Source: a virus (lineage: Duplodnaviria; Heunggongvirae; Uroviricota; Caudoviricetes). Taken from it: a stretch of DNA of 19,778 bases. Position 1 is the stretch's first letter. Each line of letters starts with the position of its first letter. Below are positions 3,318-18,542 of the stretch, in pieces. A program made the position numbers and the translations under genes. Location: positions 1-19,778 of the IMG/VR virus record IMGVR_UViG_3300028988_000065. One strand, written 5' to 3'. Under the pieces are notes generated by a model. It was given only the letters and a program-made list of their open reading frames with translations, was not told where the DNA came from and made no database searches.

Positions 3318-3916
3318 TACGCAAACTCCAGTAGTTGTGCGGCCACATTTTCAACTTCCTCCTGAGAGGAGAATTTACGGAACAGAATCCAGTTCCACAG
3401 CACATTCAGTACAGATTTATAAACCTGCTGAAACTCGACTTCGTCCATATTCGCAAAAGCGATGGATTTTGCCCGACGCCCACGGCTACCGTCCGGATAA
3501 ATATGCTCGGTGTAAAATCCGGCCTGAATGGTTACCCACTCGCGGAAAGCCTCAAACGACTTTAGCAACGCCGTATCCCGGGTTCTACGAGTCGCAACGG
3601 TGTTAAGGTATTGCTCTGCGGCATCACTCAGGGCTGGCGTGTGTTCCCGACCAACTGATTCGCACAGGTAATCAACGAAACCAGACAGCAGTTCTCGTTC
3701 GCGAGGCGTGATCGCCCCACCGACCGGAGTCCAGTAATCGAATCCCAGTTGCAGGAGTTTGAAAAAACGCTTGTGGAATGCGTAGTTACGCACACGCTTA
3801 AAGTCTGCGTGTATCCACTCACCTATTTTGATTTGATGCAGAAAATCGCAACTCTCCGGCGTCGCCGGGAGAAGTAAACCAGAAGAAGTTTGTTTGACCA
3901 GTTGTATATGCGCCAT
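3317..3916 (-). CDS. Conserved lambdoid nin-region protein, DUF1367-like (family assignment tentative), 199 aa
   Basis: Long ORF, with its stop overlapping the start of the next gene (TAATG). Size and position match the roughly 200-aa phage DUF1367 family; the assignment is from memory only. Confidence 0.6.
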   Translation of the reverse strand: MAHIQLVKQTSSGLLLPATPESCDFLHQIKIGEWIHADFKRVRNYAFHKRFFKLLQLGFDYWTPVGGAITPRERELLSGFVDYLCESVGREHTPALSDAAEQYLNTVATRRTRDTALLKSFEAFREWVTIQAGFYTEHIYPDGSRGRRAKSIAFANMDEVEFQQVYKSVLNVLWNWILFRKFSSQEEVENVAAQLLEFA

Positions 3917-4189
3917 TTCTCAATCTCTCGATGGCGCAGTGCAGCAGATGCCAGTTGTTCAGGCTGACGTATAAAGTATAAATAAACTGGTTCCAGTGTA
4001 AAGCCCCCACCTTAATGGAATAAAAACCAAACAACAGATTGCTGGGATACAAACAACGCTTATTATTAAAAGCGGTTAAACAAATTAAATTTTAATGTTA
4101 TGCAAATTTGTCAGATCACCATAATATCTCATTTGAAAACCGCTGAAATAACAACCCTATCAGGGTTAATCATATTAAGGTGAGTAAAT

Positions 4190-4276
4190 ATGGAAAACAA
4201 CAAATCTGCACATTACGTTCCTTTTTTATCTGTAATACTTTTTGTTTTATGCTGTGCGTGGGCATTATTTTTATAA
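4190..4276 (+). CDS. Possible 28-aa hydrophobic single-TM peptide (MENNKSAHYVPFLSVILFVLCCAWALFL)
   Basis: ATG preceded by AAGGTGAG RBS at 6-nt spacing. Polar N-terminus followed by a 19-residue hydrophobic stretch. Lies on the opposite strand to its neighbours in AT-rich cargo DNA. It is below the ORF-track size cutoff and I found no recognisable promoter. Confidence 0.3.
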   Translation: MENNKSAHYVPFLSVILFVLCCAWALFL

Positions 4277-4357
4277 AAATATTTACAGATGAAGTAAACC
4301 CGCCAATCAGGTTAACTGTGGCTGCGTTGAGGATGCATAATACATCAGAGGTTGCGG

Positions 4358-4367
4358 GGATTTCTCC
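4358..4367. repeat. Target-site duplication (left copy) of the IS186 insertion, GGATTTCTCC
   Basis: The same 10 bp recurs at 5707-5716, directly abutting the IS terminal inverted repeats. Confidence 0.8.
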
Positions 4368-5706
4368 CATAAGCGCTAACTTAAGGGTTGTGGTATTACG
4401 CCTGATATGATTTAACGTGCCGATGAATTACTCTCACGATAACTGGTCAGCAATTCTGGCCCATATTGGTAAGCCCGAAGAACTGGATACTTCGGCACGT
4501 AATGCCGGGGCTCTAACCCGCCGCCGCGAAATTCGTGATGCTGCAACTCTGCTACGTCTGGGGCTGGCTTACGGCCCCGGGGGGATGTCATTACGTGAAG
4601 TCACTGCATGGGCTCAGCTCCATGACGTTGCAACATTATCTGACGTGGCTCTCCTGAAGCGGCTGCGGAATGCCGCCGACTGGTTTGGCATACTTGCCGC
4701 ACAAACACTTGCTGTACGCGCCGCAGTTACGGGTTGTACAAGCGGAAAGAGATTGCGTCTTGTCGATGGAACAGCAATCAGTGCGCCCGGGGGCGGCAGC
4801 GCTGAATGGCGACTACATATGGGATATGATCCTCATACCTGTCAGTTCACTGATTTTGAGCTAACCGACAGCAGAGACGCTGAACGGCTGGACCGATTTG
4901 CGCAAACGGCAGACGAGATACGCATTGCTGACCGGGGATTCGGTTCGCGTCCCGAATGTATCCGCTCACTTGCTTTTGGAGAAGCTGATTATATCGTCCG
5001 GGTTCACTGGCGAGGATTGCGCTGGTTAACTGCAGAAGGAATGCGCTTTGACATGATGGGTTTTCTGCGCGGGCTGGATTGCGGTAAGAACGGTGAAACC
5101 ACTGTAATGATAGGCAATTCAGGTAATAAAAAAGCCGGAGCTCCCTTTCCGGCACGTCTCATTGCCGTATCACTTCCTCCCGAAAAAGCATTAATCAGTA
5201 AAACCCGACTGCTCAGCGAGAATCGTCGAAAAGGACGAGTAGTTCAGGCGGAAACGCTGGAAGCAGCGGGCCATGTGCTATTGCTAACATCATTACCGGA
5301 AGATGAATATTCAGCAGAGCAAGTGGCTGATTGTTACCGTCTGCGATGGCAAATTGAACTGGCTTTTAAGCGGCTCAAAAGTTTGCTGCACCTGGATGCT
5401 TTGCGTGCAAAGGAACCTGAACTCGCGAAAGCGTGGATATTTGCTAATCTACTCGCCGCATTTTTAATTGACGACATAATCCAGCCATCGCTGGATTTCC
5501 CCCCCAGAAGTGCCGGATCCGAAAAGAAGAACTAACTCGTTGTGGAGAATAACAAAAATGGTCATCTGGAGCTTACAGGTGGCCATTCGTGGGACAGTAT
5601 CCCTGACAGCCTACAAAACGCAATTGAAGAACGCGAGGCATCGTCTTAACGAGGCACCGAGGCGTCGCATTCTTCAGATGGTTCAACCCTTAAGTTAGCG
5701 CTTATG
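4368..5706 (+). mobile_element. IS186 (IS4 family) insertion sequence, about 1.34 kb, apparently intact
   Basis: Terminal inverted repeats CATAAGCGCTAACTTAAGGGTTG (4368-4390) and its reverse complement (5684-5706). Single transposase ORF. Flanked by a 10-bp direct repeat. Confidence 0.9.
4423..5535 (+). CDS. insL: IS186 transposase (DDE, IS4 family), 370 aa
   Basis: Translation MNYSHDNWSAILAHIGKPEELDTSARNAG...YRLRWQIELAFKRLKS matches IS186 InsL as I recall it, including the IS4-family Y-R-E-K signature region. Confidence 0.9.
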   Translation: MNYSHDNWSAILAHIGKPEELDTSARNAGALTRRREIRDAATLLRLGLAYGPGGMSLREVTAWAQLHDVATLSDVALLKRLRNAADWFGILAAQTLAVRAAVTGCTSGKRLRLVDGTAISAPGGGSAEWRLHMGYDPHTCQFTDFELTDSRDAERLDRFAQTADEIRIADRGFGSRPECIRSLAFGEADYIVRVHWRGLRWLTAEGMRFDMMGFLRGLDCGKNGETTVMIGNSGNKKAGAPFPARLIAVSLPPEKALISKTRLLSENRRKGRVVQAETLEAAGHVLLLTSLPEDEYSAEQVADCYRLRWQIELAFKRLKSLLHLDALRAKEPELAKAWIFANLLAAFLIDDIIQPSLDFPPRSAGSEKKN

Positions 5707-5716
5707 GGATTTCTCC
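5707..5716. repeat. Target-site duplication (right copy) of the IS186 insertion
   Basis: GGATTTCTCC, identical to 4358-4367. Confidence 0.8.
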
Positions 5717-5912
5717 CCGCTGGTCCTCTTACTCCCCAAGTTCGTAAGCTGTGAAGACAGCGACCTCCGTCTGGTCGGTTCGGATTCGTACCTCGCAGAG
5801 GTCTTTCCTTGCAACCTGCACCGTCATAATAACGGTAAATGTTGAATCGTTCGTAAATTAATCTATACAGATTATTATATAGCTCTCATTACGATTTTGA
5901 TTACTCTCACTT

Positions 5913-5944
5913 AAAAATACCGAAAGATACATGATCTTTCGGTA
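5913..5944 (-). terminator. Rho-independent terminator of the NTPase-nuclease gene
   Basis: 11-bp perfect stem TACCGAAAGAT / ATCTTTCGGTA (5918-5928 / 5934-5944) with loop ACATG, followed on the - strand by UUUUU. It starts 9 nt after the stop codon at 5954-5956. Confidence 0.7.
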
Positions 5945-5953
5945 AAGATTGAA

Positions 5954-8023
5954 TTACTTACATTTATTATTTAAATAGACCCTTATGTACTGATCGAGCA
6001 GTTTACCTAATTGTTTATTAACTTCGTCATGTTTTTGCGGGCTTCTCATTTTTGACAGATGCCTTTCAAGGAACTTAGAGGGTAACTTCACAACTAATTT
6101 ATTATGATTATCATAAATTTCTTTTACCCACGTAAGCTCTTTATGTTTTTCTAAATTCTCTGTGTGATCTCTATTTATGATAAAAGCTATCCGCCCATAG
6201 TCTTTAAACAAATAGGAATTTACCTGTCTATATTCTGCAGCACCTAATGTTTTATAGTTTTTCACTTCAAAAACAACTTGCCGTGTCTGATAATCTGTCA
6301 GAATTCTCTTCCAAACTGGAGTGTCAGCTATATTTGTCGCTATAATATCTCTTTGCTGCAACCCATTTTTATTGGGATGCAACTCAATGTTCGTTAAATT
6401 CGTAGCAAATAGTAACTTTATAGTTTTGAGCGCCCATGCTTCAAAATCGACAGCACCTTCAGGTCCTTCAGGTATATTATGTAGTTCTTGGAGCAACGAA
6501 CCGATTCGTTGTTTCCTCTGCTCTTCGGAAACAGAGCTGACCTCAATATCATATTCATCATGAATATCATCAGCAGCATCGGGAGTCATCTCTGATTCAT
6601 GAACACTTAATGCTAGCCAGTAGCATGGATGCAATAGCAATTTTGAATCTGGTGTAAATTCTTTTTCAGGTTCCTTACCGTCATGGCAAAATACATATGA
6701 AGATGACTGCTGGTTATACAACCCAATAAATCCAACACTGTAAAGTCGTTGAATCACCTGGATTGGCCCTTCAAAAAGAAGTAAATCCTGCATTTTCATC
6801 TTGTCAATAACGCCATTGAGATCAAGGGCATATTGTATCTTAGATGACGCTTCAGAAACACTGTAGTAAGGTTTGCTATTAGCAAATTGCGATGTAAATA
6901 TATCTAATGCAGGAAATACATTCTCATATTCTTTTAACAAATCATTGAGTCTATTTTGTGAAATAGTATTCGCTGTTGCTTGAATGTCATCAATGACAAT
7001 ACGATTACGATCATGTGTGTTTGCTCGCAAGAATGCATTATTTAACAAAACCAAAATATCTCTTGGCCTATATAGAGTCAGTTTCAATGTTTCTTTAAAA
7101 CCGGTATTAGACTGTAATTCATTTGCGGTGTAAGCATTCCACACCCTCGTGTTGTTCTCAATGGTTGAGTTAAAAGCGACCCTCATTCTATTGCATACAA
7201 GATTAAACAAGTTATATTCATCCCAATGTAATCTCAGTACTTGCCCTTCAATATTTCGAGTAAAATCAGGGTCCATTTTTGATATGGCTCGATGAATATT
7301 ATCTCTAACAAATGCAAAGGCAATAACCTTTTCATTCATATTTTGTTTTATATCAATCACAGCCTGAATGAAACCATCAACTATTGCAACACCAAGATTA
7401 TCCGGTGTATAGCCTTCATCAAGCCTATCAGCAAAAATAACAAATTGATTATTTGACTTCGAAATTGCTTCTTCTATCACCTCTTCCAATAAGTCAAGTT
7501 CAAATTTATCGGATAATTCGGCTATTCTTGTAGCTGGTTTTATATTTTTGTTATCATCGAGAATAGCGTTCAATTTTTTTCTTATTTTGCTACTTATATT
7601 TTGTCTCTTCGGTCCCCAAGATAATAAATGCGACTCTACACTTTTGTAGTCAAGATCGTTTTTCATCTTGTAATGACTTGCGATCTCAGAAAGCAGCTCC
7701 ATATAAATAGCATATCGCCATGCTAACTTGCTACCGGCTTTTATATGTAAGTAATTTTCACCAAATAAAGAAATAACATCCCTTAATCCAATAATTTGTT
7801 CTTCAACCGGACTAATAGTCATCACATAGGTTTTTGGCTTAGCATGCCAATGTTTGGAAAGCATATGCACCAGAGCACTTTTTCCTGTTCCTCTGCGGCC
7901 AACAATGATGCATCGATCGTAGGATTCGAGAAGAGCTTTATAATCAGTTGTTTGCCAAAATGAAGCTTCCAACATCTTTTCGTCATGTTCAGCTCGGATA
8001 TCCCCAAGAATATTACCTTTCAT
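5954..8023 (-). CDS. Uncharacterised 689-aa P-loop NTPase (AAA+/Arch-ATPase-like) fused to a C-terminal PD-(D/E)xK / RecB-like nuclease-type domain; candidate defence protein
   Basis: Walker A IIVGRRGTGKSAL (aa 39-51). Walker B-like QFVIFADRLDE (aa 193-203). C-terminal motifs RD559II ... FE576VK578 ... Q600VNSY604 (D / ExK / QxxxY). AAGGA RBS 6 nt upstream of the ATG. Visibly AT-rich relative to the flanking prophage genes. Own terminator. Confidence 0.85.
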   Translation of the reverse strand: MKGNILGDIRAEHDEKMLEASFWQTTDYKALLESYDRCIIVGRRGTGKSALVHMLSKHWHAKPKTYVMTISPVEEQIIGLRDVISLFGENYLHIKAGSKLAWRYAIYMELLSEIASHYKMKNDLDYKSVESHLLSWGPKRQNISSKIRKKLNAILDDNKNIKPATRIAELSDKFELDLLEEVIEEAISKSNNQFVIFADRLDEGYTPDNLGVAIVDGFIQAVIDIKQNMNEKVIAFAFVRDNIHRAISKMDPDFTRNIEGQVLRLHWDEYNLFNLVCNRMRVAFNSTIENNTRVWNAYTANELQSNTGFKETLKLTLYRPRDILVLLNNAFLRANTHDRNRIVIDDIQATANTISQNRLNDLLKEYENVFPALDIFTSQFANSKPYYSVSEASSKIQYALDLNGVIDKMKMQDLLLFEGPIQVIQRLYSVGFIGLYNQQSSSYVFCHDGKEPEKEFTPDSKLLLHPCYWLALSVHESEMTPDAADDIHDEYDIEVSSVSEEQRKQRIGSLLQELHNIPEGPEGAVDFEAWALKTIKLLFATNLTNIELHPNKNGLQQRDIIATNIADTPVWKRILTDYQTRQVVFEVKNYKTLGAAEYRQVNSYLFKDYGRIAFIINRDHTENLEKHKELTWVKEIYDNHNKLVVKLPSKFLERHLSKMRSPQKHDEVNKQLGKLLDQYIRVYLNNKCK

Positions 8024-8075
8024 CCAGATTCCTTTTTAACCCATTGAGGTGACAGCACAAATAGTATCTTAACAC

Positions 8076-8091
8076 CTGATGATTTCATCAG
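8076..8091. promoter_or_regulatory. Perfect palindrome CTGATGA-TT-TCATCAG upstream of the NTPase-nuclease gene; candidate operator
   Basis: 7-bp inverted repeat with a 2-bp spacer, 53-68 bp upstream of the start codon at 8023, in a 253-bp AT-rich intergenic region. Confidence 0.25.
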
Positions 8092-8276
8092 AACCTGATA
8101 AATAGACGTGATATAAATATGACTAAGATCACATTTCATGAAAAAATTCGACGAGTTTATATTAACTGCAGCGAATACAAATCACCGCAGTTTTCATTAC
8201 CCCTATCTGAAGAACTCTGCACAACCGATCATATTGGTCACAACTGCAGCAGGATGACTCATATAATCAGGAGTAT

Positions 8277-9026
8277 TTATTTCTCCATACCTGCTGCAAT
8301 AACTTTATGGACAATATCCCAGTGCTTGTTCAGCTCCCGCAGCGCGGCGCAGACTCGCTCCCACTTCTGGACATGATTCTTCGCCCTACGCAGTTCGCGG
8401 TTTGCCATATGCAGCGATGGCAAAATCAAATCATCTTCTCGCGTTGCAGTAAACGATGGCAGCGACTGCACAATGTCCGCTACAGTTTCTGTTTTAATAT
8501 CTTCCTGTGTTGCATCTTTCTGTACCGGTAACGCAACACCTGCTGGCTGAGGAAAGGCTTTAAAATCAGTTTCCGTTACCGATGCAGCTTTCGGCTCTGC
8601 TGGTAAATTATCGCCCGGTATGCAGTAACGAAATTTACCGTTCTGGTTTACGCGAATCAGGCGTCCTTTGCTGATTGCCATTGCCAGCGTTGAAGCAACT
8701 TTGCGGGATGTTGTACCGAACAGCGTAGCCAGTTCATCCGCCGTTTGTGGTCCGCGTTGTTCAATCGTCGCGGTTAAATCGCACTCTGAGATTTTCACTA
8801 CAGTTGCCGTGGTGGTTTCTTCCGGCAGTTCTGCCTGCATTGGCTGTTCCTGCTGAACGTTGTTATCAGCCACACGCCAGGTGTACGCGCTTTTATCAAC
8901 GAAACCAGCTTTTTTCAGTTCCCATAGTTCGTTCAGCACTGCTTCACGACTGATATCAAGTCGCGCAGCAAGTTCTATGGATGTGGCTTTTCCCATTGCT
9001 TTCAGTGCGTCAAAAACAGTCTCCAT
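8277..9026 (-). CDS. ydaW: YdaW-like protein (DUF977 family), full length, 249 aa
   Basis: ATG at 9026 with GGGAGA RBS, 22 nt after the ydaV stop. Position matches ydaW of Rac, which in K-12 is a truncated pseudogene; here the frame is open for 249 codons. Confidence 0.7.
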
Positions 9027-9048
9027 TAAATTTTTCTCCCGGTAAAAA

Positions 9049-9795
9049 TTACTTCGCAATTCCTGGCTGGACGACATTCGGACGCCAGCTCTCCCAGTTG
9101 AAATTCACCCATCGCCCGCCGTTCATGGTCATGCGATCCATAATCCGCTCGCCAAGCAATGTTTTCATGGCCTCATAGTTCAGGTTTGTCAGCATCCCCA
9201 CGCTGCGCATCGACGCTGTCCGGCGATCAACAATCTGGTGCAGTACCACCTGCTCGTTTTTCGTCTCGCGCTGAATGCCAATTTCATCAAGAACCAGCAG
9301 ATCCACTTCGCACAGTTCCCGCAAAAATTTTTCGCCTGACTGCCCGTCGTCATAGCTGGCGTGCAGGGCACTCATAACATCAGCCACGGTAACCACAATC
9401 ACTGTCTGACCGTCTTTCAGCAGGCGATTCCCGATAGCTGCCGCTAAGTGGTTCTTCCCGGTACCAGGTTTTCCGCTGAACGCAAAATTTGTACACCCGG
9501 TCATCAGTTCATCAGCGATGGATTTCGCCTGACTCAACGCGTATCGCTGCCCTTCGTTCTGCACCTGGTAATTCGAAAACGAGCATTTGCGGTGCAATGG
9601 CTGGATGCCAGAGCGATTCAGAATTTTTTCCACCCGCAACTGACGATTCTGACGGTTGATCTCCTCACAACGTTTCTGGCCTTCGGAAAGTTGCCACTCG
9701 CGCCACTCCGCTACCGTCTTGAATGGCGCGGTTACATGTGACGGGGCCAGTCTGCGGATACGTTCAAGAACATCGCCTGTCGCAATATTTTTCAT
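9049..9795 (-). CDS. ydaV: Replication protein, DnaC/lambda P-like helicase loader, 248 aa
   Basis: Walker [16 protein letters not shown] and Walker B LLVLDEIG. Matches Rac YdaV in sequence and length, from memory. Confidence 0.9.
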
Positions 9796-9801
9796 GGTCA
9801 G

Positions 9802-10659
9802 TTACCCCCTGAAGCCTGGCGGGATCGCACTATCCGGTAACGAGACGGTGTTAACCTGTCGGAGTAACGTCTCAGGTCGAACACCTTTCGGCGCGAACAA
9901 GCCCTGGTATTCATTGGCGATGCTGTGTCGAATCACCTGCTCAGGTGAAAAACCCTGCTGGCGGAATTTTTCCAGCTCCCGTATCGCCCCGTTAGCGCCC
10001 TGCTCCGTTCGAATCGGTTTTCGCAATGCCTGGCGAAATTCAACCCACTCACGCCAAAGCGAGACAGAAATCCAGTTCGGCAAAGTAATATCCAGAGGGT
10101 CAAACTTTTTGACACCTCGATTCCCCCGGGGGGGATTTAGGGGGGGATCTGTTTTTAGATCTTTATCTGTATCTTTATTAGTTGCCTTTGTGTTGACATC
10201 ATGTTCAAACACCACTTCAACATCTGTTTGAACACCTGTTAAATTTTTCTCTTGTTTTGTTTGAACATCTGCTTCCTTTCTGCTTCTTCTGGCCTGAACA
10301 GATGCTTTTCCTGCGGCTGATTTTTTGGTTAATTTTTCCCTGACTGATGCCAGATCTTCCTCAATCCGAAGATGCACCCATTCCTCGCCGTTATCGCAAA
10401 AAAACTCCTGCAAGGATGGTTCAACATCAGCCCATCGCTCGTTAGTCAGACGGGCAATTTTTGCCAGCCTGTTTTTAGGTATTGGCTTTCCTGTTTGCCA
10501 GTAATTGAACATCAGCAACAAATACGCACCATGCTCCTCTGCTGACAAATGCATGGTGTCAGCCAGGTAATCAGCTATGTACAGTTGCATGTATGGTAAT
10601 GCGGCCATAATTGCCCCGTATGATGCTGCCCGGTGGCTTAGAATAAGCACAAACAGCAT
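9802..10659 (-). CDS. ydaU: Replication initiation protein (lambda O-like, DUF1376), 285 aa
   Basis: Matches Rac YdaU (MLFVLILSHRAASYGAIMAALPYMQLYIADYL...), from memory; lies immediately upstream of ydaV in the same operon. Confidence 0.85.
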   Translation of the reverse strand: MLFVLILSHRAASYGAIMAALPYMQLYIADYLADTMHLSAEEHGAYLLLMFNYWQTGKPIPKNRLAKIARLTNERWADVEPSLQEFFCDNGEEWVHLRIEEDLASVREKLTKKSAAGKASVQARRSRKEADVQTKQEKNLTGVQTDVEVVFEHDVNTKATNKDTDKDLKTDPPLNPPRGNRGVKKFDPLDITLPNWISVSLWREWVEFRQALRKPIRTEQGANGAIRELEKFRQQGFSPEQVIRHSIANEYQGLFAPKGVRPETLLRQVNTVSLPDSAIPPGFRG

Positions 10660-10671
10660 GGAAACTTTTGC

Positions 10672-11094
10672 TTAATGAACAATGACAGAATCGTCGGAAG
10701 AACCGCCGCCGCTGAAATGCGCTTTCCGGTAAACGGCTTGGACTGCATCATCATGCGCATCAATTGCCGTACTTAACGCTTCCTGCGCCGCCAGTAATGC
10801 ACGGCGTTCCAGGGTATCGAAGATGCAGAGTCGGTGACGCAGCTCGCGCGGAAGGATTGCCAGAATTGCTGGGATCAGCTTCTGAATTTTTTCTCTTTGC
10901 GTTTTCGTTTCACCTTTCAACCAACGGTGATAGATATTCTGCTGATTGTTCCAGTCCTTGCCTGGAACCAGGGGCAATTCGCCGCCCCCCTGGCGCAGAT
11001 ATTCTTCAGTAATTGCATTGGCTACCCATGCCTGCCCTTTTTCGGCTGCTAGGGCAAACAACACTGATTCGATGTGCTCATGCTTGATTTTCAT
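10672..11094 (-). CDS. ydaT: YdaT, Rac early protein reported as toxic/cell-division inhibiting (CII position), 140 aa
   Basis: Matches Rac YdaT in sequence and length, from memory; second gene of the rightward early operon. Confidence 0.85.
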   Translation of the reverse strand: MKIKHEHIESVLFALAAEKGQAWVANAITEEYLRQGGGELPLVPGKDWNNQQNIYHRWLKGETKTQREKIQKLIPAILAILPRELRHRLCIFDTLERRALLAAQEALSTAIDAHDDAVQAVYRKAHFSGGGSSDDSVIVH

Positions 11095-11116
11095 GAATCA
11101 TTTGCCTCTTGATGTT

Positions 11117-11413
11117 TCAGGTATGATCAAATGAGGATTTGTTACTGTCATTTAGTTGCTTCACTGACATATTCTGCGAACAACATGCCGAACGTCGTAA
11201 ATATGACCAGTCAATATCAGGACGAAGTTCTTCGCACAGAACCTCACCTCTTGTTGCACGTTCAATTGCTGGACATCTCTCGGCAGGCAATTGACGTACC
11301 CCTTTGATCCATTGATTTACGCTTGGAGGTGATACACCTAAAAGCCTAGCCATTGCTGATTGCCCACCGACAACAGCACAAGCTTGCTTGAATGAATAGT
11401 TCTCTTTTTTCAT
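11117..11413 (-). CDS. ydaS: Cro-like HTH regulator YdaS, 98 aa
   Basis: HTH region QACAVVGGQSAMARLLGVSPPSVNQWIKG. Divergent from racR. Matches Rac YdaS, from memory. Confidence 0.9.
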   Translation of the reverse strand: MKKENYSFKQACAVVGGQSAMARLLGVSPPSVNQWIKGVRQLPAERCPAIERATRGEVLCEELRPDIDWSYLRRSACCSQNMSVKQLNDSNKSSFDHT

Positions 11414-11439
11414 CGAATGAACTCCAAAAACACACAGAA

Positions 11440-11469
11440 ATATTAGGCGACGCCTAACGCAATTGTCAA
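11440..11469 (-). promoter_or_regulatory. PR-like promoter for ydaS with embedded operator palindrome
   Basis: On the - strand: -35 TTGACA (plus 11464-11469), 18-bp spacer, -10 TAATAT (plus 11440-11445). The palindrome TTAGGCGaCGCCTAA (11443-11457) sits in the spacer. Further TTAGGC-type half-sites occur at 11478-11485 and 11503-11510. Confidence 0.55.
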
Positions 11470-11485
11470 TAGGCTGTGCCTAATG
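11462..11485. repeat. 24-bp repeat ATTGTCAATAGGCTGTGCCTAATG, left arm of an inverted repeat flanking racR (OR side)
   Basis: Its reverse complement recurs at 12108-12131 with a single mismatch. Confidence 0.8.
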
Positions 11486-11536
11486 CAGTAAGGGTAGGGA
11501 TTGCCTAATGTAATGCGCATAGGAGAATATTAAGCA

Positions 11537-12013
11537 ATGCTTAGTGGTAAAGACTTAGGCCGAGCGATAGAGCAGGCCATTAACAAAAAAATCGCATCGG
11601 GATCCGTCAAATCAAAGGCGGAGGTCGCACGCCACTTTAAAGTCCAACCACCATCAATTTATGACTGGATTAAGAAAGGCTCTATAAGTAAAGATAAACT
11701 TCCAGAATTATGGCGTTTCTTTTCTGATGTTGTTGGTCCAGAGCATTGGGGGCTTAACGAATACCCCATACCAACCCCCACCAATTCAGATACAAAAAGT
11801 GAACTTTTAGATATAAACAACCTTTATCAAGCAGCCTCTGATGAAATAAGAGCGATTGTAGCTTTCCTGTTATCTGGAAATGCTACAGAACCAGATTGGG
11901 TTGACCACGATGTTCGCGCCTACATAGCAGCGATGGAAATGAAAGTGGGTAAGTATCTGAAAGCTCTTGAATCTGAACGGAAAAGCCAGAACATCACAAA
12001 AACTGGAACTTAA
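11537..12013 (+). CDS. racR: Prophage repressor RacR (CI-like), 158 aa
   Basis: Matches RacR (MLSGKDLGRAIEQAINKKIASGSVKSKAEVARHFKVQPPSIYDWIKKG...), from memory; divergent from ydaS. Confidence 0.9.
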   Translation: MLSGKDLGRAIEQAINKKIASGSVKSKAEVARHFKVQPPSIYDWIKKGSISKDKLPELWRFFSDVVGPEHWGLNEYPIPTPTNSDTKSELLDINNLYQAASDEIRAIVAFLLSGNATEPDWVDHDVRAYIAAMEMKVGKYLKALESERKSQNITKTGT

Positions 12014-12107
12014 ACTTATATGGTCTGACGGAAAACTCCTGGATTCCGTTATTTAACCCCCCCATCACTTTCTGCTGTCGCCATCACCTATTAGGTTACG
12101 CTCAAAA

Positions 12108-12131
12108 CATTAGGCATAGCCTATTGACAAT
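12108..12131. repeat. Right arm of the racR-flanking inverted repeat (OL side)
   Basis: CATTAGGCATAGCCTATTGACAAT is the reverse complement of 11462-11485 with 1 mismatch. Extra TTAGGC half-sites lie at 12087-12095 and 12133-12143. Confidence 0.8.
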
Positions 12132-12152
12132 CAATTAGGCATTACCTATAGT
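12124..12152 (+). promoter_or_regulatory. PL-like promoter for the early-left operon (ydaG through intR)
   Basis: -35 TTGACA (12124-12129), 17-bp spacer, -10 TATAGT (12147-12152). Embedded in the operator repeat and oriented away from racR. Confidence 0.6.
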
Positions 12153-12321
12153 TCCAGCATACCACCCACCCCGCCCCACAGAACGCCGGGCAATACTTCG
12201 AGTTACCAGGCAGTGGTAAGGGGTTAAGTAGCCAGCCCGAGGCGTATGAACATGACGGCGGGATTCAAATTTTGCAGTGCAGCAGTTAGTTCCGCCACCC
12301 GGCGTTAAGGGGAGAGATAAG

Positions 12322-12456
12322 ATGGTGCATTACGAAGTAGTTCAGTATTTGATGGATTGTTGCGGTATCACTTACAACCAGGCTGTGCAGGCTTTACGCA
12401 GCAACGACTGGGATCTCTGGCAGGCAGAAGTCGCTATACGTAGCAACAAGATGTGA
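12322..12456 (+). CDS. ydaG: Small Rac protein YdaG, 44 aa
   Basis: ATG with GGGGAGAG RBS. Translation MVHYEVVQYLMDCCGITYNQAVQALRSNDWDLWQAEVAIRSNKM. Confidence 0.7.
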   Translation: MVHYEVVQYLMDCCGITYNQAVQALRSNDWDLWQAEVAIRSNKM

Positions 12457-12466
12457 GATTCGCAAA

Positions 12467-12622
12467 ATGCAAAAAATCGACCTCGGCAACAACGAATCCC
12501 TGGTGTGCGGCGTGTTCCCCAACCAGGATGGAACGTTCACTGCCATGACGTATACCAAAAGCAAAACATTTAAAACCGAAACTGGTGCGCGCCGATGGTT
12601 GGAGAAGCACACAGTAAGCTAA
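12467..12622 (+). CDS. ydaF: Small Rac protein YdaF, 51 aa
   Basis: Translation MQKIDLGNNESLVCGVFPNQDGTFTAMTYTKSKTFKTETGARRWLEKHTVS. Its stop overlaps the sieB stop on the other strand. Confidence 0.7.
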   Translation: MQKIDLGNNESLVCGVFPNQDGTFTAMTYTKSKTFKTETGARRWLEKHTVS

Positions 12623-13107
12623 CGATTAAAACGTCTACTCCTGCTGTTCCAGAATAACTTCATAAAATGGGAGTATTTTTCGGTGACGAGATAATAAGAA
12701 CAGTTTGCGCTATCACTCTGATGTTGAATGATGCCCTTCCGTTCTAATTTTTTCATAACCGGGTTACGGCAAGGAGAAGTGATAATAAGATTTCCTGTTT
12801 TAAGGAAATCTTTAAATACAGCGATTTCTTTCTCAGATAAACGAAGCAATACTCGTTGCTCTGGTAGTAATGAATAATGCTTTTGAATATGTGCTCGCAA
12901 TCTTGAGAAGGAAATGGCGACCACGAAAGAAAAGGAAAAAACGATAATCTGAAAGAGCCAAGGTATTTCAGTATAAGCATTGAATGCGACAGTAAACTCT
13001 TTCGGTATCAGCCAGAGAGTGAGACCAAAAATGATAATCGTATACATAAGTCTTTCGAGTGGCTCGTTAGCAAAAAGTTTCAACAATGGAGTAAATACAT
13101 CCAACAT
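12619..13107 (-). CDS. sieB: Superinfection exclusion protein SieB, 162 aa (membrane protein)
   Basis: Start taken at the MLDVF ATG (13107), matching the K-12 length as I recall it. Hydrophobic segments present. The track ORF runs further upstream to 13230. Confidence 0.8.
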   Translation of the reverse strand: MLDVFTPLLKLFANEPLERLMYTIIIFGLTLWLIPKEFTVAFNAYTEIPWLFQIIVFSFSFVVAISFSRLRAHIQKHYSLLPEQRVLLRLSEKEIAVFKDFLKTGNLIITSPCRNPVMKKLERKGIIQHQSDSANCSYYLVTEKYSHFMKLFWNSRSRRFNR

Positions 13108-13325
13108 ATCAATAACTCTCAACTGTAAGGGTATTGAAATGTTAACACAAGCTCTCGCTGTAGGGGTATAGCCGAGACCACCGAAGCCCGGAGGTGGTGA
13201 AATAAAACCGGGCACAACACGAAGGCGCATTTCCGATATCCATAAAGAGTCGGTCTTGTCTGTTAAATTTAAATGGTGGGAGTGCGCCTCCGGTTGTAAA
13301 TAACGACATTGCTGTGTGTAGTCCT

Positions 13326-13373
13326 GGCGGCATCAGTTTTTTTCTTGAAGTTCGGCTGATGTCCGCCCTTTTT
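13326..13373 (+). terminator. Candidate tL1-like intrinsic terminator/attenuator upstream of kilR
   Basis: GC-rich stem GGCGGCATCAG / CTGATG(T)CCGCC (11 bp with one bulge) around a 19-nt loop, followed by CTTTTT on the + strand. Confidence 0.35.
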
Positions 13374-13548
13374 AAAGTGAATTTTGTGATGCGGTGAATG
13401 CGGCTAAGCGCACGTGGCACAGTTAAAAGTCATGTTAGTCCTTATTGGTTTGGGTGGGAAAGCCGACTGTAATTGTTAACTGGTTGCAGTCACCTGGAGG
13501 CACCAGACACCGCATCAACAAAGTTCATTTGTAAAAATGGAGATAATT

Positions 13549-13770
13549 ATGATTGCACATCACTTCGGAACTGATGAAATACCACGTCAGTGTGTGACTC
13601 CTGGCGATTATGTTCTTCATGAAGGCCGGACATATATTGCCTCGGCAAACAATATTAAAAAGCGAAAACTATATATTCGTAACCTGACCACAAAAACATT
13701 CATTACTGACCGCATGATTAAAGTCTTCCTCGGTCGTGATGGTTTACCTGTAAAGGCGGAGTCATGGTGA
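13549..13770 (+). CDS. kilR: KilR, FtsZ-ring/cell-division inhibitor, 73 aa
   Basis: Translation [80 protein letters not shown]. Confidence 0.9.
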
Positions 13771-13940
13771 TGACTAAGAAAATAAAATGTGCTTACCACC
13801 TTTGCAAAAAAGACGTTGAAGAAAGCAAAGCTATTGAAAGAATGCTTCACTTCATGCACGGGATTTTATCAAAAGACGAACCGAGAAAATATTGCAGTGA
13901 AGCTTGTGCCGAAAAAGACCAGATGGCACATGAACTTTAA
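13770..13940 (+). CDS. ydaE: YdaE, small Cys-rich (Zn-binding type) protein, 56 aa
   Basis: ATG overlaps the kilR stop (TGATG). Translation [56 protein letters not shown]. Not in the ORF track because it is shorter than 60 aa. Confidence 0.8.
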   Translation: MTKKIKCAYHLCKKDVEESKAIERMLHFMHGILSKDEPRKYCSEACAEKDQMAHEL

Positions 13941-14014
13941 TTAATTGACTATTCGAAACTGAATTTATGCCAGAAATGGCAGGTATTCGCTCAACCTTAA
14001 TTAAGGAGAAAAAC

Positions 14015-14290
14015 ATGATTACCAATTATGAAGCCACTGTTGTAACTACCGATGACATTGTTCACGAGGTGAATCTGGAAGGAAAGCGCATTGGCTACGT
14101 AATTAAAACAGAAAATAAAGAAACCCCATTCACTGTGGTTGATATCGATGGTCCATCAGGCAACGTAAAAACACTTGATGAAGGTGTCAAAAAAATGTGC
14201 CTGGTGCATATCGGAAAGAATCTGCCCGCAGAAAAAAAAGCCGAATTTCTGGCAACTCTAATTGCAATGAAATTAAAAGGTGAAATCTGA
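14015..14290 (+). CDS. racC: RacC, 91 aa
   Basis: AGGAG RBS. Translation MITNYEATVVTTDDIVHEVNLEGKRIGYVIKTENKETPFTVVDIDGPSG... Confidence 0.85.
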   Translation: MITNYEATVVTTDDIVHEVNLEGKRIGYVIKTENKETPFTVVDIDGPSGNVKTLDEGVKKMCLVHIGKNLPAEKKAEFLATLIAMKLKGEI

Positions 14291-14295
14291 AAGAA

Positions 14296-14320
14296 ATAGC
14301 CTGCGTATGGCGCAGGCTAT
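14296..14320 (+). other. Perfect 10-bp stem-loop between racC and recE
   Basis: ATAGCCTGCG-TATGG-CGCAGGCTAT, 6 nt after the racC stop. It has no U-tract on the + strand. Confidence 0.5.
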
Positions 14321-14391
14321 GAACAGTGTGTATCCGGCAAGATCATTCACTGAACAAAACGAATTTTAATCTGAGTTGAGGTTAAAAAACA

Positions 14392-16992
14392 ATGAGCACA
14401 AAACCACTCTTCCTGTTACGGAAAGCGAAAAAATCATCCGGTGAACCTGACGTCGTCCTGTGGGCAAGCAACGATTTTGAATCGACCTGTGCCACTCTGG
14501 ACTACCTGATCGTTAAGTCAGGTAAAAAACTGAGCAGCTATTTTAAAGCTGTTGCCACGAATTTTCCTGTCGTTAATGACCTGCCCGCTGAAGGTGAGAT
14601 CGATTTTACCTGGAGTGAACGCTATCAACTCAGCAAAGACTCCATGACATGGGAACTAAAACCGGGAGCAGCACCAGACAACGCTCACTATCAAGGCAAT
14701 ACCAACGTCAACGGCGAAGACATGACTGAGATTGAGGAGAATATGCTACTCCCAATTTCTGGCCAGGAACTGCCCATTCGTTGGCTTGCTCAACACGGCA
14801 GCGAAAAACCGGTAACGCACGTTTCACGCGACGGACTCCAGGCATTACACATTGCTCGGGCTGAAGAACTACCGGCTGTTACTGCCCTGGCTGTTTCCCA
14901 CAAAACCAGCCTGCTCGACCCGCTGGAAATTCGCGAACTCCACAAACTGGTTCGTGACACTGACAAAGTTTTCCCTAATCCTGGTAATTCAAACCTGGGA
15001 CTGATAACTGCTTTTTTCGAAGCATACCTGAACGCTGACTACACCGATCGAGGACTGCTGACAAAAGAGTGGATGAAGGGTAATCGTGTTTCACACATCA
15101 CTCGCACGGCTTCCGGTGCTAATGCTGGCGGCGGAAACCTCACCGATCGCGGCGAAGGTTTCGTACACGATCTGACGTCACTGGCGCGCGACGTAGCCAC
15201 TGGCGTACTGGCCCGTTCAATGGATCTGGACATCTATAACCTTCATCCGGCACACGCTAAACGCATTGAGGAAATTATCGCTGAAAATAAACCGCCCTTT
15301 TCTGTTTTCCGCGACAAATTCATCACCATGCCTGGCGGGCTGGATTATTCCCGCGCCATCGTGGTTGCGTCCGTAAAAGAAGCACCAATTGGGATCGAGG
15401 TCATCCCCGCGCACGTCACTGAATATCTGAACAAAGTACTGACTGAAACCGATCATGCCAACCCTGATCCGGAAATCGTGGATATTGCCTGCGGTCGCTC
15501 CTCTGCCCCGATGCCGCAGCGAGTAACAGAAGAAGGAAAACAGGATGATGAAGAAAAACCGCAACCATCTGGAACAACGGCAGTTGAACAGGGAGAGGCT
15601 GAAACAATGGAACCGGACGCAACTGAACATCATCAGGACACGCAGCCGCTGGATGCTCAGTCACAGGTAAATTCTGTTGATGCGAAATATCAGGAACTGC
15701 GGGCAGAACTCCATGAAGCCCGGAAAAACATTCCATCAAAAAATCCTGTCGATGACGATAAATTGCTTGCTGCATCACGTGGTGAATTTGTTGACGGAAT
15801 TAGCGACCCGAACGATCCGAAATGGGTAAAGGGGATCCAGACTCGCGATTGTGTGTACCAGAACCAGCCAGAAACGGAAAAAACCAGCCCAGATATGAAT
15901 CAACCTGAGCCAGTAGTGCAACAGGAACCGGAAATAGCCTGCAATGCCTGCGGCCAGACTGGCGGGGATAACTGCCCTGACTGTGGTGCGGTGATGGGCG
16001 ACGCAACATACCAGGAAACATTCGATGAAGAGAGTCAGGTTGAAGCTAAGGAAAATGATCCGGAGGAAATGGAAGGCGCTGAACATCCGCACAATGAGAA
16101 TGCTGGCAGCGATCCGCATCGCGATTGCAGTGATGAAACTGGCGAAGTCGCAGATCCCGTAATCGTAGAAGACATAGAGCCAGGTATTTATTACGGAATT
16201 TCGAATGAGAATTACCACGCGGGTCCCGGTATCAGTAAGTCTCAGCTCGATGACATTGCTGATACTCCGGCACTATATTTGTGGCGTAAAAATGCCCCCG
16301 TGGACACCACAAAGACAAAAACGCTCGATTTAGGAACTGCTTTCCACTGCCGGGTACTTGAACCGGAAGAATTCAGTAACCGCTTTATCGTAGCACCTGA
16401 ATTTAACCGCCGTACAAACGCCGGAAAAGAAGAAGAGAAAGCGTTTCTGATGGAATGCGCAAGCACAGGAAAAACGGTTATCACTGCGGAAGAAGGCCGG
16501 AAAATTGAACTCATGTATCAAAGCGTTATGGCTTTGCCGCTGGGGCAATGGCTTGTTGAAAGCGCCGGACACGCTGAATCATCAATTTACTGGGAAGATC
16601 CTGAAACAGGAATTTTGTGTCGGTGCCGTCCGGACAAAATTATCCCTGAATTTCACTGGATCATGGACGTGAAAACTACGGCGGATATTCAACGATTCAA
16701 AACCGCTTATTACGACTACCGCTATCACGTTCAGGATGCATTCTACAGTGACGGTTATGAAGCACAGTTTGGAGTGCAGCCAACTTTCGTTTTTCTGGTT
16801 GCCAGCACAACTATTGAATGCGGACGTTATCCGGTTGAAATTTTCATGATGGGCGAAGAAGCAAAACTGGCAGGTCAACAGGAATATCACCGCAATCTGC
16901 GAACCCTGTCTGACTGCCTGAATACCGATGAATGGCCAGCTATTAAGACATTATCACTGCCCCGCTGGGCTAAGGAATATGCAAATGACTAA
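14392..16992 (+). CDS. recE: Exodeoxyribonuclease VIII (RecE), 866 aa
   Basis: Full-length match to RecE from memory, including the C-terminal nuclease region with PD-(D/E)xK-type motifs. Overlaps recT by 8 nt. Confidence 0.95.
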
Positions 16993-17794
16993 GCAACCAC
17001 CAATCGCAAAAGCCGATCTGCAAAAAACTCAGGGAAACCGTGCACCAGCAGCAGTTAAAAATAGCGACGTGATTAGTTTTATTAACCAGCCATCAATGAA
17101 AGAGCAACTGGCAGCAGCTCTTCCACGCCATATGACGGCTGAACGTATGATCCGTATCGCCACCACAGAAATTCGTAAAGTTCCGGCGTTAGGAAACTGT
17201 GACACTATGAGTTTTGTCAGTGCGATCGTACAGTGTTCACAGCTCGGACTTGAGCCAGGTAGCGCCCTCGGTCATGCATATTTACTGCCTTTTGGTAATA
17301 AAAACGAAAAGAGCGGTAAAAAGAACGTTCAGCTAATCATTGGCTATCGCGGCATGATTGATCTGGCTCGCCGTTCTGGTCAAATCGCCAGCCTGTCAGC
17401 CCGTGTTGTCCGTGAAGGTGACGAGTTTAGCTTCGAATTTGGCCTTGATGAAAAGTTAATACACCGCCCGGGAGAAAACGAAGATGCCCCGGTTACCCAC
17501 GTCTATGCTGTCGCAAGACTGAAAGACGGAGGTACTCAGTTTGAAGTTATGACGCGCAAACAGATTGAGCTGGTGCGCAGCCTGAGTAAAGCTGGTAATA
17601 ACGGGCCGTGGGTAACTCACTGGGAAGAAATGGCAAAGAAAACGGCTATTCGTCGCCTGTTCAAATATTTGCCCGTATCAATTGAGATCCAGCGTGCAGT
17701 ATCAATGGATGAAAAGGAACCACTGACAATCGATCCTGCAGATTCCTCTGTATTAACCGGGGAATACAGTGTAATCGATAATTCAGAGGAATAA
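16985..17794 (+). CDS. recT: RecT single-strand annealing recombinase, 269 aa
   Basis: Translation [77 protein letters not shown]... Confidence 0.95.
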
Positions 17795-17850
17795 TTCAGC
17801 CTGGCGGTGTAATGCACCGCCAACTTGAAATATTTTTTATGAGAAAAATT

Positions 17851-18045
17851 ATGAGATATGACAATGTTAAACCATGTCCATTTTGTGGTTGTCCATCAGT
17901 AACGGTGAAAGCCATTTCAGGATATTACCGAGCGAAGTGTAACGGATGCGAATCCCGAACCGGTTATGGTGGAAGTGAAAAAGAAGCACTCGAAAGATGG
18001 AATAAACGAACCACTGGAAATAATAATGGAGGTGTTCATGTATAA
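17851..18045 (+). CDS. ralR: RalR (restriction alleviation; reported type I toxin/DNase), 64 aa
   Basis: Translation MRYDNVKPCPFCGCPSVTVKAISGYYRAKCNGCESRTGYGGSEKEALERWNKRTTGNNNGGVHV. Confidence 0.85.
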   Translation: MRYDNVKPCPFCGCPSVTVKAISGYYRAKCNGCESRTGYGGSEKEALERWNKRTTGNNNGGVHV

Positions 18046-18247
18046 AATTACCGCCACTATTGAAAAGGAAGGTGGCACTCCTACTAACTGGACAAGATAT
18101 TCAAAATCTAAACTAACGAAATCAGAATGCGAAAAAATGCTCTCAGGTAAAAAAGAAGCAGGCGTTTCCAGAGAGCAGAAAGTAAAACTGATAAATTTTA
18201 ATTGCGAGAAACTTCAGTCCTCGAGAATTGCATTGTATTCAAATTAA
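18038..18247 (+). CDS. ydaC: YdaC, 69 aa
   Basis: GGAGG RBS. The ATG overlaps the 3' end of ralR. Translation MYKITATIEKEGGTPTNWTRYSKSKLTKSECEKMLSGKKEAG... Confidence 0.75.
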   Translation: MYKITATIEKEGGTPTNWTRYSKSKLTKSECEKMLSGKKEAGVSREQKVKLINFNCEKLQSSRIALYSN

Positions 18248-18325
18248 AACTTCATAGCTGATTATTAATAATCAACATCGGGCGTCAATTTCAGTCTAAC
18301 ATTGGCGCCTGCCAGAGGTGATGCG

Positions 18326-18541
18326 ATGGCACAAGTAATCTTTAATGAAGAGTGGATGGTTGAATACGGCCTGATGCTTCGCACTGGTCTGGGGGCCAGA
18401 CAAATTGAAGCATACCGCCAGAACTGTTGGGTGGAGGGCTTCCACTTCAAACGAGTATCTCCTTTAGGTAAGCCAGACAGCAAACGAGGGATTATCTGGT
18501 ACAACTATCCAAAGATAAATCAGTTTATCAAAGACTCATGA
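18326..18541 (+). CDS. xisR: Excisionase XisR (YdaQ), 71 aa
   Basis: AGAGGTGA RBS. Translation [71 protein letters not shown]. Confidence 0.85.
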
Positions 18542-18542
18542 T

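What the first reader, a model, noticed from the sequence alone, without database searches (positions are those of the whole stretch)
4358..5716. Intact IS186 with a 10-bp target duplication inserted into a GC-rich hairpin in the cargo region
The element has perfect terminal inverted repeats, an uninterrupted transposase and a flanking GGATTTCTCC duplication, indicating a recent insertion. It landed in a GC-rich palindrome, consistent with the known IS186 preference for GC-rich targets. It separates the small-peptide locus and nin genes from the NTPase-nuclease gene and may alter transcription into or out of the cargo region.
Basis: partly seen in the sequence, partly recalled or inferred. Interest (0 to 1): 0.4.

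Follow-up and report, generated by a model that had tools for sequence, protein, structure and literature searches.

The report
IS186 in a hok-remnant hairpin
This is an ordinary, intact copy of the well-known E. coli insertion sequence IS186, sitting in its textbook kind of target: the GC-rich hairpin just after a (here already dead) hok toxin gene inside a Rac prophage.

Summary
Window 4368-5706 is a complete IS186. It has 23-bp perfect inverted repeats and a 370-aa DDE transposase. It shows 0 differences in 1345 bp against all three E. coli K-12 copies. It is flanked by GGATTTCTCC; the literal direct repeat is 12 nt.

Removing the IS and one repeat copy restores a sequence found 100% identical in IS-free E. 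coli genomes.

GCGGGGAGAAATCCCCGC starts 9 nt after the stop codon of a 5'-truncated hokD-like pseudogene (minus strand, 5729-5839). It is the same homologous hairpin, cut in the same register, that IS186A occupies at hokC and IS186B at hokE in K-12.

It is also the only GGGG(N6)CCCC site in the 18.4-kb IS-less window.

The site is a recurrent hot spot. 193 complete genomes carry IS186 there in this orientation, next to other cargo. 10 carry it in the opposite orientation. Roughly a third of all IS186 copies in 5,426 genomes lie at hok hairpins.

hok was truncated before the insertion, so the insertion reflects target preference, not toxin inactivation.

Whether this copy inserted de novo or was inherited and followed by a cargo swap is unresolved. 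Effects on transcription are untested.

Already known; low interest.

The parts
4358..4367 (.). Left copy of the target-site duplication, GGATTTCTCC. The literal 12-nt repeat is 4357-4368.
4368..5706 (+). IS186 (also named IS421 or IS186B). It is 1339 bp when delimited by the 23-bp inverted repeats. Window 4365-5709 equals the 1345-bp K-12 annotation with 0 differences.
4368..4390 (+). Left terminal inverted repeat (IRL), CATAAGCGCTAACTTAAGGGTTG.
4423..5535 (+). IS4-family DDE transposase, 370 aa plus stop. It is identical to K-12 InsL1/InsL2.
5684..5706 (-). Right terminal inverted repeat (IRR), a perfect reverse complement of IRL.
5707..5716 (.). Right copy of the target-site duplication, GGATTTCTCC. 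The literal 12-nt repeat is 5706-5717.
4354..4367 (-). Distal half, in hok sense, of the split target hairpin GCGGGGAGAAATCCCCGC. The other half is 5707-5720. It matches GGGG(N6)CCCC.
5707..5720 (-). Proximal half, in hok sense, of the split target hairpin. The hairpin begins 9 nt after the hok stop codon.
5729..5839 (-). hokD-like pseudogene remnant. It keeps the 36 C-terminal codons plus the stop. It lacks the start codon, the N-terminal membrane segment and the upstream region where hokC/hokE carry mok and sok. It was truncated before the IS arrived.
5918..5944 (-). Terminator-like hairpin (11-bp stem followed by TTTTT) just after the ATPase stop codon. It lies upstream of the hok remnant and the IS in the minus-strand direction of transcription.
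   Evidence: (I10)
5954..8023 (-). Cargo gene: Sll1717-family P-loop ATPase, 689 aa. Context only; it is not part of the IS.

Best explanation
Window 4368-5706 is a complete and presumably active copy of IS186, an IS4-family DDE transposase element. It is identical to the E. coli K-12 copies.

It transposed into the GGGG(N6)CCCC hairpin that lies directly downstream of a hokD-like gene in a Rac prophage integrated at ttcA. Staggered cleavage of the symmetrical target followed by repair produced the flanking duplication (10 bp as read, 12 nt literally).

The site was chosen because of the transposase's target preference. This hairpin is conserved downstream of hok genes, and IS186 uses it repeatedly: at hokC and hokE in K-12, and at hokD-like loci in many prophages, in both orientations.

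In this allele hok had already lost its 5' half when the ATPase cargo cassette replaced the neighbouring genes. The insertion therefore did not inactivate a toxin. Any effect is limited to transcription through the delayed-early region toward the nin and Q-like genes.

Shown: the identity of the element, its ends, the duplication, the empty site, the homology of the site to hokC and hokE, and its recurrent use.

Inferred: the cut-and-paste mechanism, present activity, and any transcriptional consequence.
For: Element identity:
- 0 of 1345 differences against IS186A, IS186B and IS186C of MG1655, and an identical 370-aa transposase.
- DDE_Tnp_1 and the IS4-family models pass their cut-offs.
- IS186 is present in 2,221 of 5,426 complete genomes, median 3 copies.

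Insertion:
- The reconstructed empty site is 100% identical in FDAARGOS_497 and two other records, and 38 genomes hold it.
- FDAARGOS_497 is identical to the window over 3624-4367 and 5707-8023.

Target:
- It is the only GGGG(N5-8)CCCC motif in the IS-less window.
- It forms a stable hairpin.

Link to hok:
- RefSeq annotates a 'Hok/Gef family protein, missing N-terminus' at the homologous place.
- The remnant aligns with intact hokD, hokC and hokE and hits the Hok model.

Same site as in K-12:
- The junctions read ...GCGGGGAGAAATCC|IS here, ...GCGGGGAGTGATCC|IS at hokC and ...GCGGGGAGTAATCC|IS at hokE.
- They lie 22, 22 and 21 nt after the stop codon.
- The duplication register is the same in all six occupied hok loci examined, and also at the nupC terminator hairpin.

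Recurrence:
- 193 genomes carry the same-orientation junction next to different cargo: relBE, TPR plus DUF262, or two hypothetical genes.
- 10 genomes carry the opposite orientation. At least PCP06101 does so in the very same ATPase allele.
- The hokC junction is in 819 genomes and the hokE junction in 1,725.

Literature:
- IS186 downstream of gef/hokC is described as disrupting the fold-back (fbi) element (PMC3562002).
- SaiSree et al. 2001 defined a consensus IS186 target. I know this only from the title in reference lists and from my own knowledge. The paper itself is not held.
Against: Nothing contradicts the identification.

Limits:
- The exact boundary between IS and duplication cannot be fixed, because every target examined shares GGGA...TCCC.
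- Activity of this particular copy is inferred only from its identity to active K-12 copies.
- The counts of junction-bearing genomes rest on >=80% coverage of 400-bp chimeric queries. They could include a few cases where the IS lies nearby rather than at the hairpin.
- Whether this copy arose by a fresh insertion is not settled (see the rival explanations).
Confidence: 0.93

Rival explanations
1. The IS was not newly inserted in this prophage. It was inherited from a Rac lineage that already had IS186 at this hairpin in this orientation, such as Z217-2, L73 or EH10-18-47. The cargo to its right was later replaced by the truncated-hok plus ATPase cassette through homologous recombination. One crossover would lie in the 103 bp between the IS end and position 5809.
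For: - From about 9400 to 19778 the window differs from Z217-2 (IS-bearing) at about 6 positions. It differs from ET565 (IS-free, ATPase allele) at about 60.
- The window and Z217-2 are identical over 5707-5809, and differences start at 5810.
- The prophage family is visibly mosaic. For example, 8646-8941 matches neither relative.
- The prophage encodes RecE and RecT.
Against: - An IS-free allele (FDAARGOS_497) is identical to the window for 744 bp to the left and 2.3 kb to the right of the IS. One insertion event therefore suffices.
- The left arm does not discriminate: 8 mismatches against ET565 and 9 against Z217-2.
- Independent insertion into this same allele is documented in the opposite orientation.
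- A crossover confined to about 100 bp is a rarer event than insertion at a hot spot.
Confidence: 0.3
2. IS186 accumulates at hok hairpins because insertions there are selected. They would uncouple hok from its 3' fold-back element and so inactivate or deregulate the toxin. On this view the cause is selection, not target preference.
For: - IS186 downstream of gef/hokC is thought to disrupt the fbi element (PMC3562002).
- The hokC and hokE junctions are very common: 819 and 1,725 genomes.
Against: - In this allele hok lacks its start codon and N-terminal half, and the truncation is also present in the IS-free alleles. Nothing was left to inactivate.
- Even so, the site was hit in both orientations.
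- IS186C sits in an unrelated hairpin of the same GGGGA-N4-TCCCC form, at the nupC terminator.
- The high counts at hokC and hokE may reflect vertical inheritance of old insertions.
Confidence: 0.05
3. The IS brought in, or mobilised, the neighbouring ATPase cargo gene as part of a composite or one-ended transposition event.
For: The only support is that the IS lies next to a variable cargo region.
Against: - The ATPase cassette exists in 38 genomes without the IS.
- The window contains only one pair of IS186 ends.
- The duplication flanks the IS alone.
Confidence: 0.02
4. Assembly artefact: a repeat copy of IS186 was misplaced into this locus.
For: - IS186 is multicopy in most genomes that have it.
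- The exact configuration is absent from 5,426 complete genomes.
Against: - The junctions show a clean duplication in the same register as all verified insertions.
- The IS sits at the only consensus target in the window.
- A misassembly would not create a target duplication.
Confidence: 0.02

Closest known systems
IS186A downstream of hokC (gef) in E. coli K-12 MG1655 (15387-16731)
   Same: - The element sequence is identical.
- It occupies the homologous post-stop hairpin, GCGGGGAG..ATCCCCGC.
- The IS is the same distance from the hok stop codon, 22 nt.
- The duplication register is the same.
- The orientation is the same, with the transposase convergent with hok.
   Different: - hokC, mokC and sokC are intact in K-12, so that insertion separates a live toxin gene from its 3' region. 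Here hok is a 5'-truncated remnant.
- The K-12 locus is chromosomal; this one is in a Rac prophage.
IS186B downstream of hokE in E. coli K-12 MG1655 (608007-609351)
   Same: The element is identical. It occupies the homologous hairpin in the same register, 21 nt after the stop codon.
   Different: The orientation relative to hok is opposite. hokE is intact.
IS186 at hokD-like loci of Rac/Qin-type prophages (for example Z217-2, L73, EH10-18-47; 193 genomes)
   Same: - Same prophage position, between the DUF1367 gene and hok.
- Same orientation.
- Same 12-nt direct repeat, GGGATTTCTCCC.
   Different: Those loci have an intact 51-aa hok and other cargo to its right: relBE, TPR plus DUF262, or two hypothetical genes. 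The window has truncated hok plus the Sll1717 ATPase. No complete genome combines that allele with IS186 in this orientation.
IS186 in strain PCP06101 and 9 other genomes (opposite orientation)
   Same: In PCP06101 it is the same truncated-hok plus ATPase allele, the same hairpin and the same duplication. The right flank is 100% identical to the window over 1,884 bp.
   Different: The IS is inverted, which shows an independent insertion event. I inspected the cargo allele only in PCP06101, not in the other 9 genomes.
IS186C in the nupC terminator hairpin (K-12), and the lon-promoter hot spot of E. coli B
   Same: The target has the same form, GGGGA-N4-TCCCC within a hairpin, and the register is the same at nupC. 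The lon promoter is a documented IS186 hot spot (PMC3861542).
   Different: These sites are unrelated to hok. I did not examine the lon site here.

Membership tests
IS186 (IS4 family insertion sequence; PGAP names IS186B / IS421) | Full-length nucleotide identity to the reference IS186 copies | tested here: met
   0 of 1345 differences against IS186A, IS186B and IS186C of MG1655.
IS186 (IS4 family insertion sequence; PGAP names IS186B / IS421) | 23-bp perfect terminal inverted repeats, CATAAGCGCTAACTTAAGGGTTG | tested here: met
   4368-4390 and 5684-5706 are perfect. The same ends occur in the K-12 copies.
IS186 (IS4 family insertion sequence; PGAP names IS186B / IS421) | A single uninterrupted DDE transposase of the IS4 family | tested here: met
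   370 aa at 4423-5535. DDE_Tnp_1 scores 93.7 bits against a cut-off of 23. NF033592 scores 133.3 bits against a cut-off of 115. The protein is identical to InsL1.
IS186 (IS4 family insertion sequence; PGAP names IS186B / IS421) | A short target-site duplication, of variable length according to Sengstag et al. 1986 | tested here: met
   10 bp as read, 12 nt as the literal repeat. The exact length is ambiguous because the target and the IS ends overlap in sequence.
IS186 (IS4 family insertion sequence; PGAP names IS186B / IS421) | Target matching GGGG(N6/N7)CCCC | tested here: met
   The restored site is GGGGATTTCTCCCC, the only such motif in the IS-less window. The consensus itself is taken from my knowledge of SaiSree et al. 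2001. That paper is not held.
IS186 (IS4 family insertion sequence; PGAP names IS186B / IS421) | Transposition activity of this copy | not testable with these tools
   Inferred only from its identity to K-12 copies, which transpose into the lon promoter in evolution experiments (PMC3861542).
[quoted passage not shown] | Sequence homology to Hok family toxins | tested here: met
   - 86-90% DNA identity to annotated hokD loci.
- Aligns with hokD, hokC and hokE.
- The 36-aa fragment hits NF007279 over profile positions 18-51 (E 9e-6). It scores below the full-length cut-off, as expected for a fragment.
[quoted passage not shown] | An intact ORF of about 50 aa with the N-terminal membrane segment | tested here: not met
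   Only a 32-aa ATG ORF, or 36 homologous codons, remains. Homology stops at 5839. RefSeq marks the homologous feature as a pseudogene missing its N-terminus.
[quoted passage not shown] | The mok reading frame, the Sok antisense RNA and the 5' regulatory elements | tested here: not met
   There is no similarity upstream of 5839 to the mok/sok regions of hokC or hokE. Rfam finds nothing in the IS-free locus.

The most novel reading that the evidence does not exclude
The hairpins that follow hok genes act as a general homing site for IS186, independent of hok function. On my counts, about one third of all IS186 copies in complete E. coli genomes sit at such hairpins. That is 819 hokC, 1,725 hokE and about 203 hokD-like junctions out of 8,691 places. 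The hokD-like site has been hit independently in both orientations, and it is still hit after hok has decayed to a remnant. Because hok loci ride on prophages and plasmids, this preference could be a route by which IS186 spreads horizontally. The copy here could also impose polarity on the Q-like late regulator of Rac.
Probability: 0.35. Interest if true: 0.3.

Novelty: already known. Interest (0 to 1): 0.1.

Why it matters
It matters little beyond correct annotation. The element is a textbook IS, and the association of IS186 with hok loci has been known since the K-12 hok genes were described.

Three modest points are useful.

1. The 'GC-rich hairpin in the cargo region' should be annotated as the 3' hairpin of a hok pseudogene.

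2. An insertion at a dead hok argues that target preference, not selection against the toxin, explains the IS186-hok association.

3. The locus marks a cargo-exchange position in Rac/Qin-type prophages with at least four alternative cassettes. This is of some interest to people mapping prophage defence hot spots.

Tried and rejected
- Rfam: a permissive search of the IS-free locus (L001 8900-9750) gave no match, so it offers no RNA-family support for hok mRNA or Sok elements.
- SaiSree et al. 2001 (PMC95536) could not be read. The target consensus therefore rests on my own knowledge and on the paper's title in reference lists.
- Fixing the exact end of the IS by comparing seven insertions failed. 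Every target shares GGGA...TCCC, so the boundary stays ambiguous.
- Deciding between de novo insertion and an inherited IS from SNP patterns failed. The left arm is equally close to IS-free and IS-bearing relatives, and the right arm is mosaic.
- Outward promoters: the consensus scan found no promoter-like site inside the IS ends. The three sites found in 3900-6100 are no more than shuffles give, 3 against 3.6. I found no support for IS-driven outward transcription.
- A composite-transposon origin of the ATPase gene is rejected, because IS-free ATPase alleles exist.
- The 28-aa small ORF to the left of the IS has no NCBIfam match. The longer ORFs that overlap it (4170-4370 minus, 4180-4410 plus) have no Pfam match.

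Full report
**Observation**

- The 23-mer CATAAGCGCTAACTTAAGGGTTG starts at 4368. Its perfect reverse complement ends at 5706.
- Between them lies one uninterrupted ORF, 4417/4423-5535, on the plus strand. It carries a DDE_Tnp_1 domain at 1.6e-26 and passes the NCBIfam IS4-family model.
- GGATTTCTCC flanks the element at 4358-4367 and 5707-5716.
- The literal direct repeat is 12 nt, GGGATTTCTCCC, at 4357-4368 and 5706-5717. This is because the element ends in C...G and the target is GGGGA...TCCCC.
- The division between IS and duplication is therefore ambiguous: 1337+12, 1339+10, 1341+8 or 1343+6. This is the same ambiguity that makes the K-12 record annotate 1345 bp.

**Identity**

- Window 4365-5709 has 0 differences in 1345 bp from IS186A and IS186B of MG1655, and the transposase is identical to InsL1/InsL2.
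- IS186C is identical too.
- RefSeq names the same protein 'IS186B family' or 'IS421 family' transposase.
- The element occurs in 2,221 of 5,426 complete E. coli genomes, at 8,691 places, with a median of 3 copies per genome.

**Empty site**

- Removing the IS and one copy of the repeat gives an 800-bp sequence. It is found 100% identical in three complete genomes, and 38 genomes hold it at >=80% coverage.
- The restored target is GCGGGGATTTCTCCCCGC, a 7-bp stem and 4-nt loop inside a 5-bp outer stem. Predicted energy is about -21 kcal/mol, with z -2.8 and -3.6.
- It is the only GGGG(N5-8)CCCC motif in the 18,429-bp IS-less window. This fits the published IS186 target consensus of SaiSree et al. 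2001, which I cite from reference lists and from my own knowledge, because the paper is not held.

**What the hairpin is**

- In the IS-free genomes RefSeq annotates a 'Hok/Gef family protein, incomplete, missing N-terminus' right next to the site.
- On the minus strand of the window, 5729-5839 encodes ...ARKDLCEVRIRTDQTEVAVFTAYELGE*. This is the C-terminal 36 codons of a HokD-like toxin.
- DNA similarity to annotated hokD loci (86-90%) stops at 5839.
- An alignment with intact hokD, hokC and hokE shows no similarity in the 5' part, where the start codon and, at hokC/hokE, mok and sok lie.
- The hairpin begins 9 nt after the hok stop codon.

**Comparison with K-12**

Written in hok sense, the junctions are:

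- Window: GAGTAA GAGGACCA GCGGGGAGAAATCC|IS
- hokC: GAGTAA GAGCAACG GCGGGGAGTGATCC|IS
- hokE: AAGTAG CCGTTGT GCGGGGAGTAATCC|IS

The IS is in the homologous hairpin, in the same register, 22, 22 and 21 nt after the stop codon. Its orientation here is that of IS186A at hokC.

IS186C sits in an unrelated hairpin of the same form, the nupC terminator GCCGGGGATAATTCCCCGG, again in the same register.

The literature describes IS186 downstream of gef/hokC as disrupting the fold-back (fbi) element. It reports that the gef mRNA ends inside the IS about 200 nt past the stop codon (PMC3562002).

**Recurrence**

- A query across the right junction shows 193 genomes with the IS186 right end joined to a hokD-like 3' end in this orientation.
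- In those genomes hok is intact and the cargo to its right differs: relBE as in Qin, two hypothetical genes, or TPR plus DUF262 genes.
- No complete genome covers the window's own right junction beyond 5839.
- A chimeric query for the opposite orientation finds 10 genomes. At least PCP06101 has the same truncated-hok plus ATPase allele as the window, which makes it an independent insertion event.
- The hokC junction is in 819 genomes and the hokE junction in 1,725.
- Roughly a third of all IS186 places are therefore at hok hairpins. This is an approximate figure, based on >=80% coverage of 400-bp junction queries. Much of it probably reflects vertical inheritance.

**Context**

- The window is a Rac prophage at ttcA, running from essD to intR.
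- The prophage's delayed-early direction is the minus strand: ydaS, ydaT, ydaU, ydaV, DUF1627, the cargo, hok, [IS], DUF1367, DUF1364 and the DUF1133 Q-like gene.
- The cargo here is a 689-aa Sll1717-family P-loop ATPase (NF047389, 254.7 bits). Its C-terminal part resembles the PADLOC candidate PDC-M36A. No nuclease domain was detected.
- A strong terminator-like hairpin (5944-5918, followed by TTTTT) comes right after its stop codon.
- Another terminator-like hairpin lies inside the IS on the antisense strand, at 5153-5134.
- The promoter scan is at chance level and shows nothing at the IS ends.

**History of this copy**

- The closest whole-window relative, ET565, is IS-free (93% coverage, 99.4% identity).
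- FDAARGOS_497 is identical to the window for 744 bp to the left and 2.3 kb to the right of the IS. This favours a fresh insertion at a hot spot.
- However, the backbone from about 9400 onward is much closer to Z217-2, which already has IS186 here in this orientation: about 6 mismatches against about 60 for ET565.
- The two alleles are identical over 5707-5809. An inherited IS followed by a cargo swap is therefore possible.
- I put de novo insertion at roughly two to one over inheritance. The data do not decide it.

**Consequence**

hok was already truncated in the IS-free alleles, so the insertion did not inactivate a toxin. That in turn argues that target preference, not selection on hok, drives the association.

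Any effect on transcription toward the nin and Q-like genes is conjecture. Transcripts that are not antiterminated should already stop at 5944-5918.

**Verdict**

The feature is an ordinary, already known element at an already known type of site. Interest is low.

Noticed in passing
window 4190-4276 (+): A 28-aa hydrophobic small ORF, MENNKSAHYVPFLSVILFVLCCAWALFL, with a good Shine-Dalgarno (AAGGTGAG), convergent with the hok remnant. The frame is intact in all seven related loci examined, including one only 91% identical (three amino-acid changes). It is unannotated in RefSeq relatives and has no NCBIfam match. It could be a real small membrane peptide or chance.
   Followed up: partly
window 5840-9100; L005, L007, L010: The position between hok and the DUF1627/DUF977 genes is a cargo-exchange spot in Rac/Qin-type prophages. 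At least four alternative cassettes occur there: relBE-ydfV-flxA, two hypothetical genes, TPR plus DUF262 genes, and the Sll1717 ATPase. The ATPase cassette is the one that removed the 5' half of hok.
   Followed up: partly
window 5954-8023 (-): The 689-aa cargo protein is a Sll1717-family P-loop ATPase (254.7 bits). It has a weak N-terminal match to an 'anti-phage protein' model (NF053860, far below cut-off). Its C-terminal region (528-623) resembles the PADLOC candidate PDC-M36A (3e-11).
   Followed up: partly
window 8646-8941: A stretch inside the DUF1627-family gene differs densely from both of the closest relatives, ET565 and Z217-2. This indicates a third parental source and a mosaic prophage.
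   Followed up: no
window 4170-4370 (-): A 66-aa ORF starts at an ATG supplied by the IS186 terminal repeat (CAT at 4368-4370) and reads outward across the left flank. It has no Pfam match and is probably a mechanical by-product of the insertion.
   Followed up: no
window 5134-5153 (-): A terminator-like hairpin, GCCGGAAAGGGAGCTCCGGC followed by TTTTTTATTA, lies on the antisense strand inside IS186. It could stop transcripts that enter the IS from the hok side. The literature places the end of the gef mRNA inside IS186 about 200 nt past the stop codon, which is a different position.
   Followed up: no
L004 (strain DS26-1) 4180-4560: A related prophage has an intact hokD whose post-stop hairpin reads GGCGAGGGAGAAATCCCTCGCC. 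It lacks the GGGG/CCCC runs and carries no IS186, while IS1 and IS3 elements have hit the neighbouring DUF1367 gene. This is a single anecdote consistent with the motif requirement.
   Followed up: no
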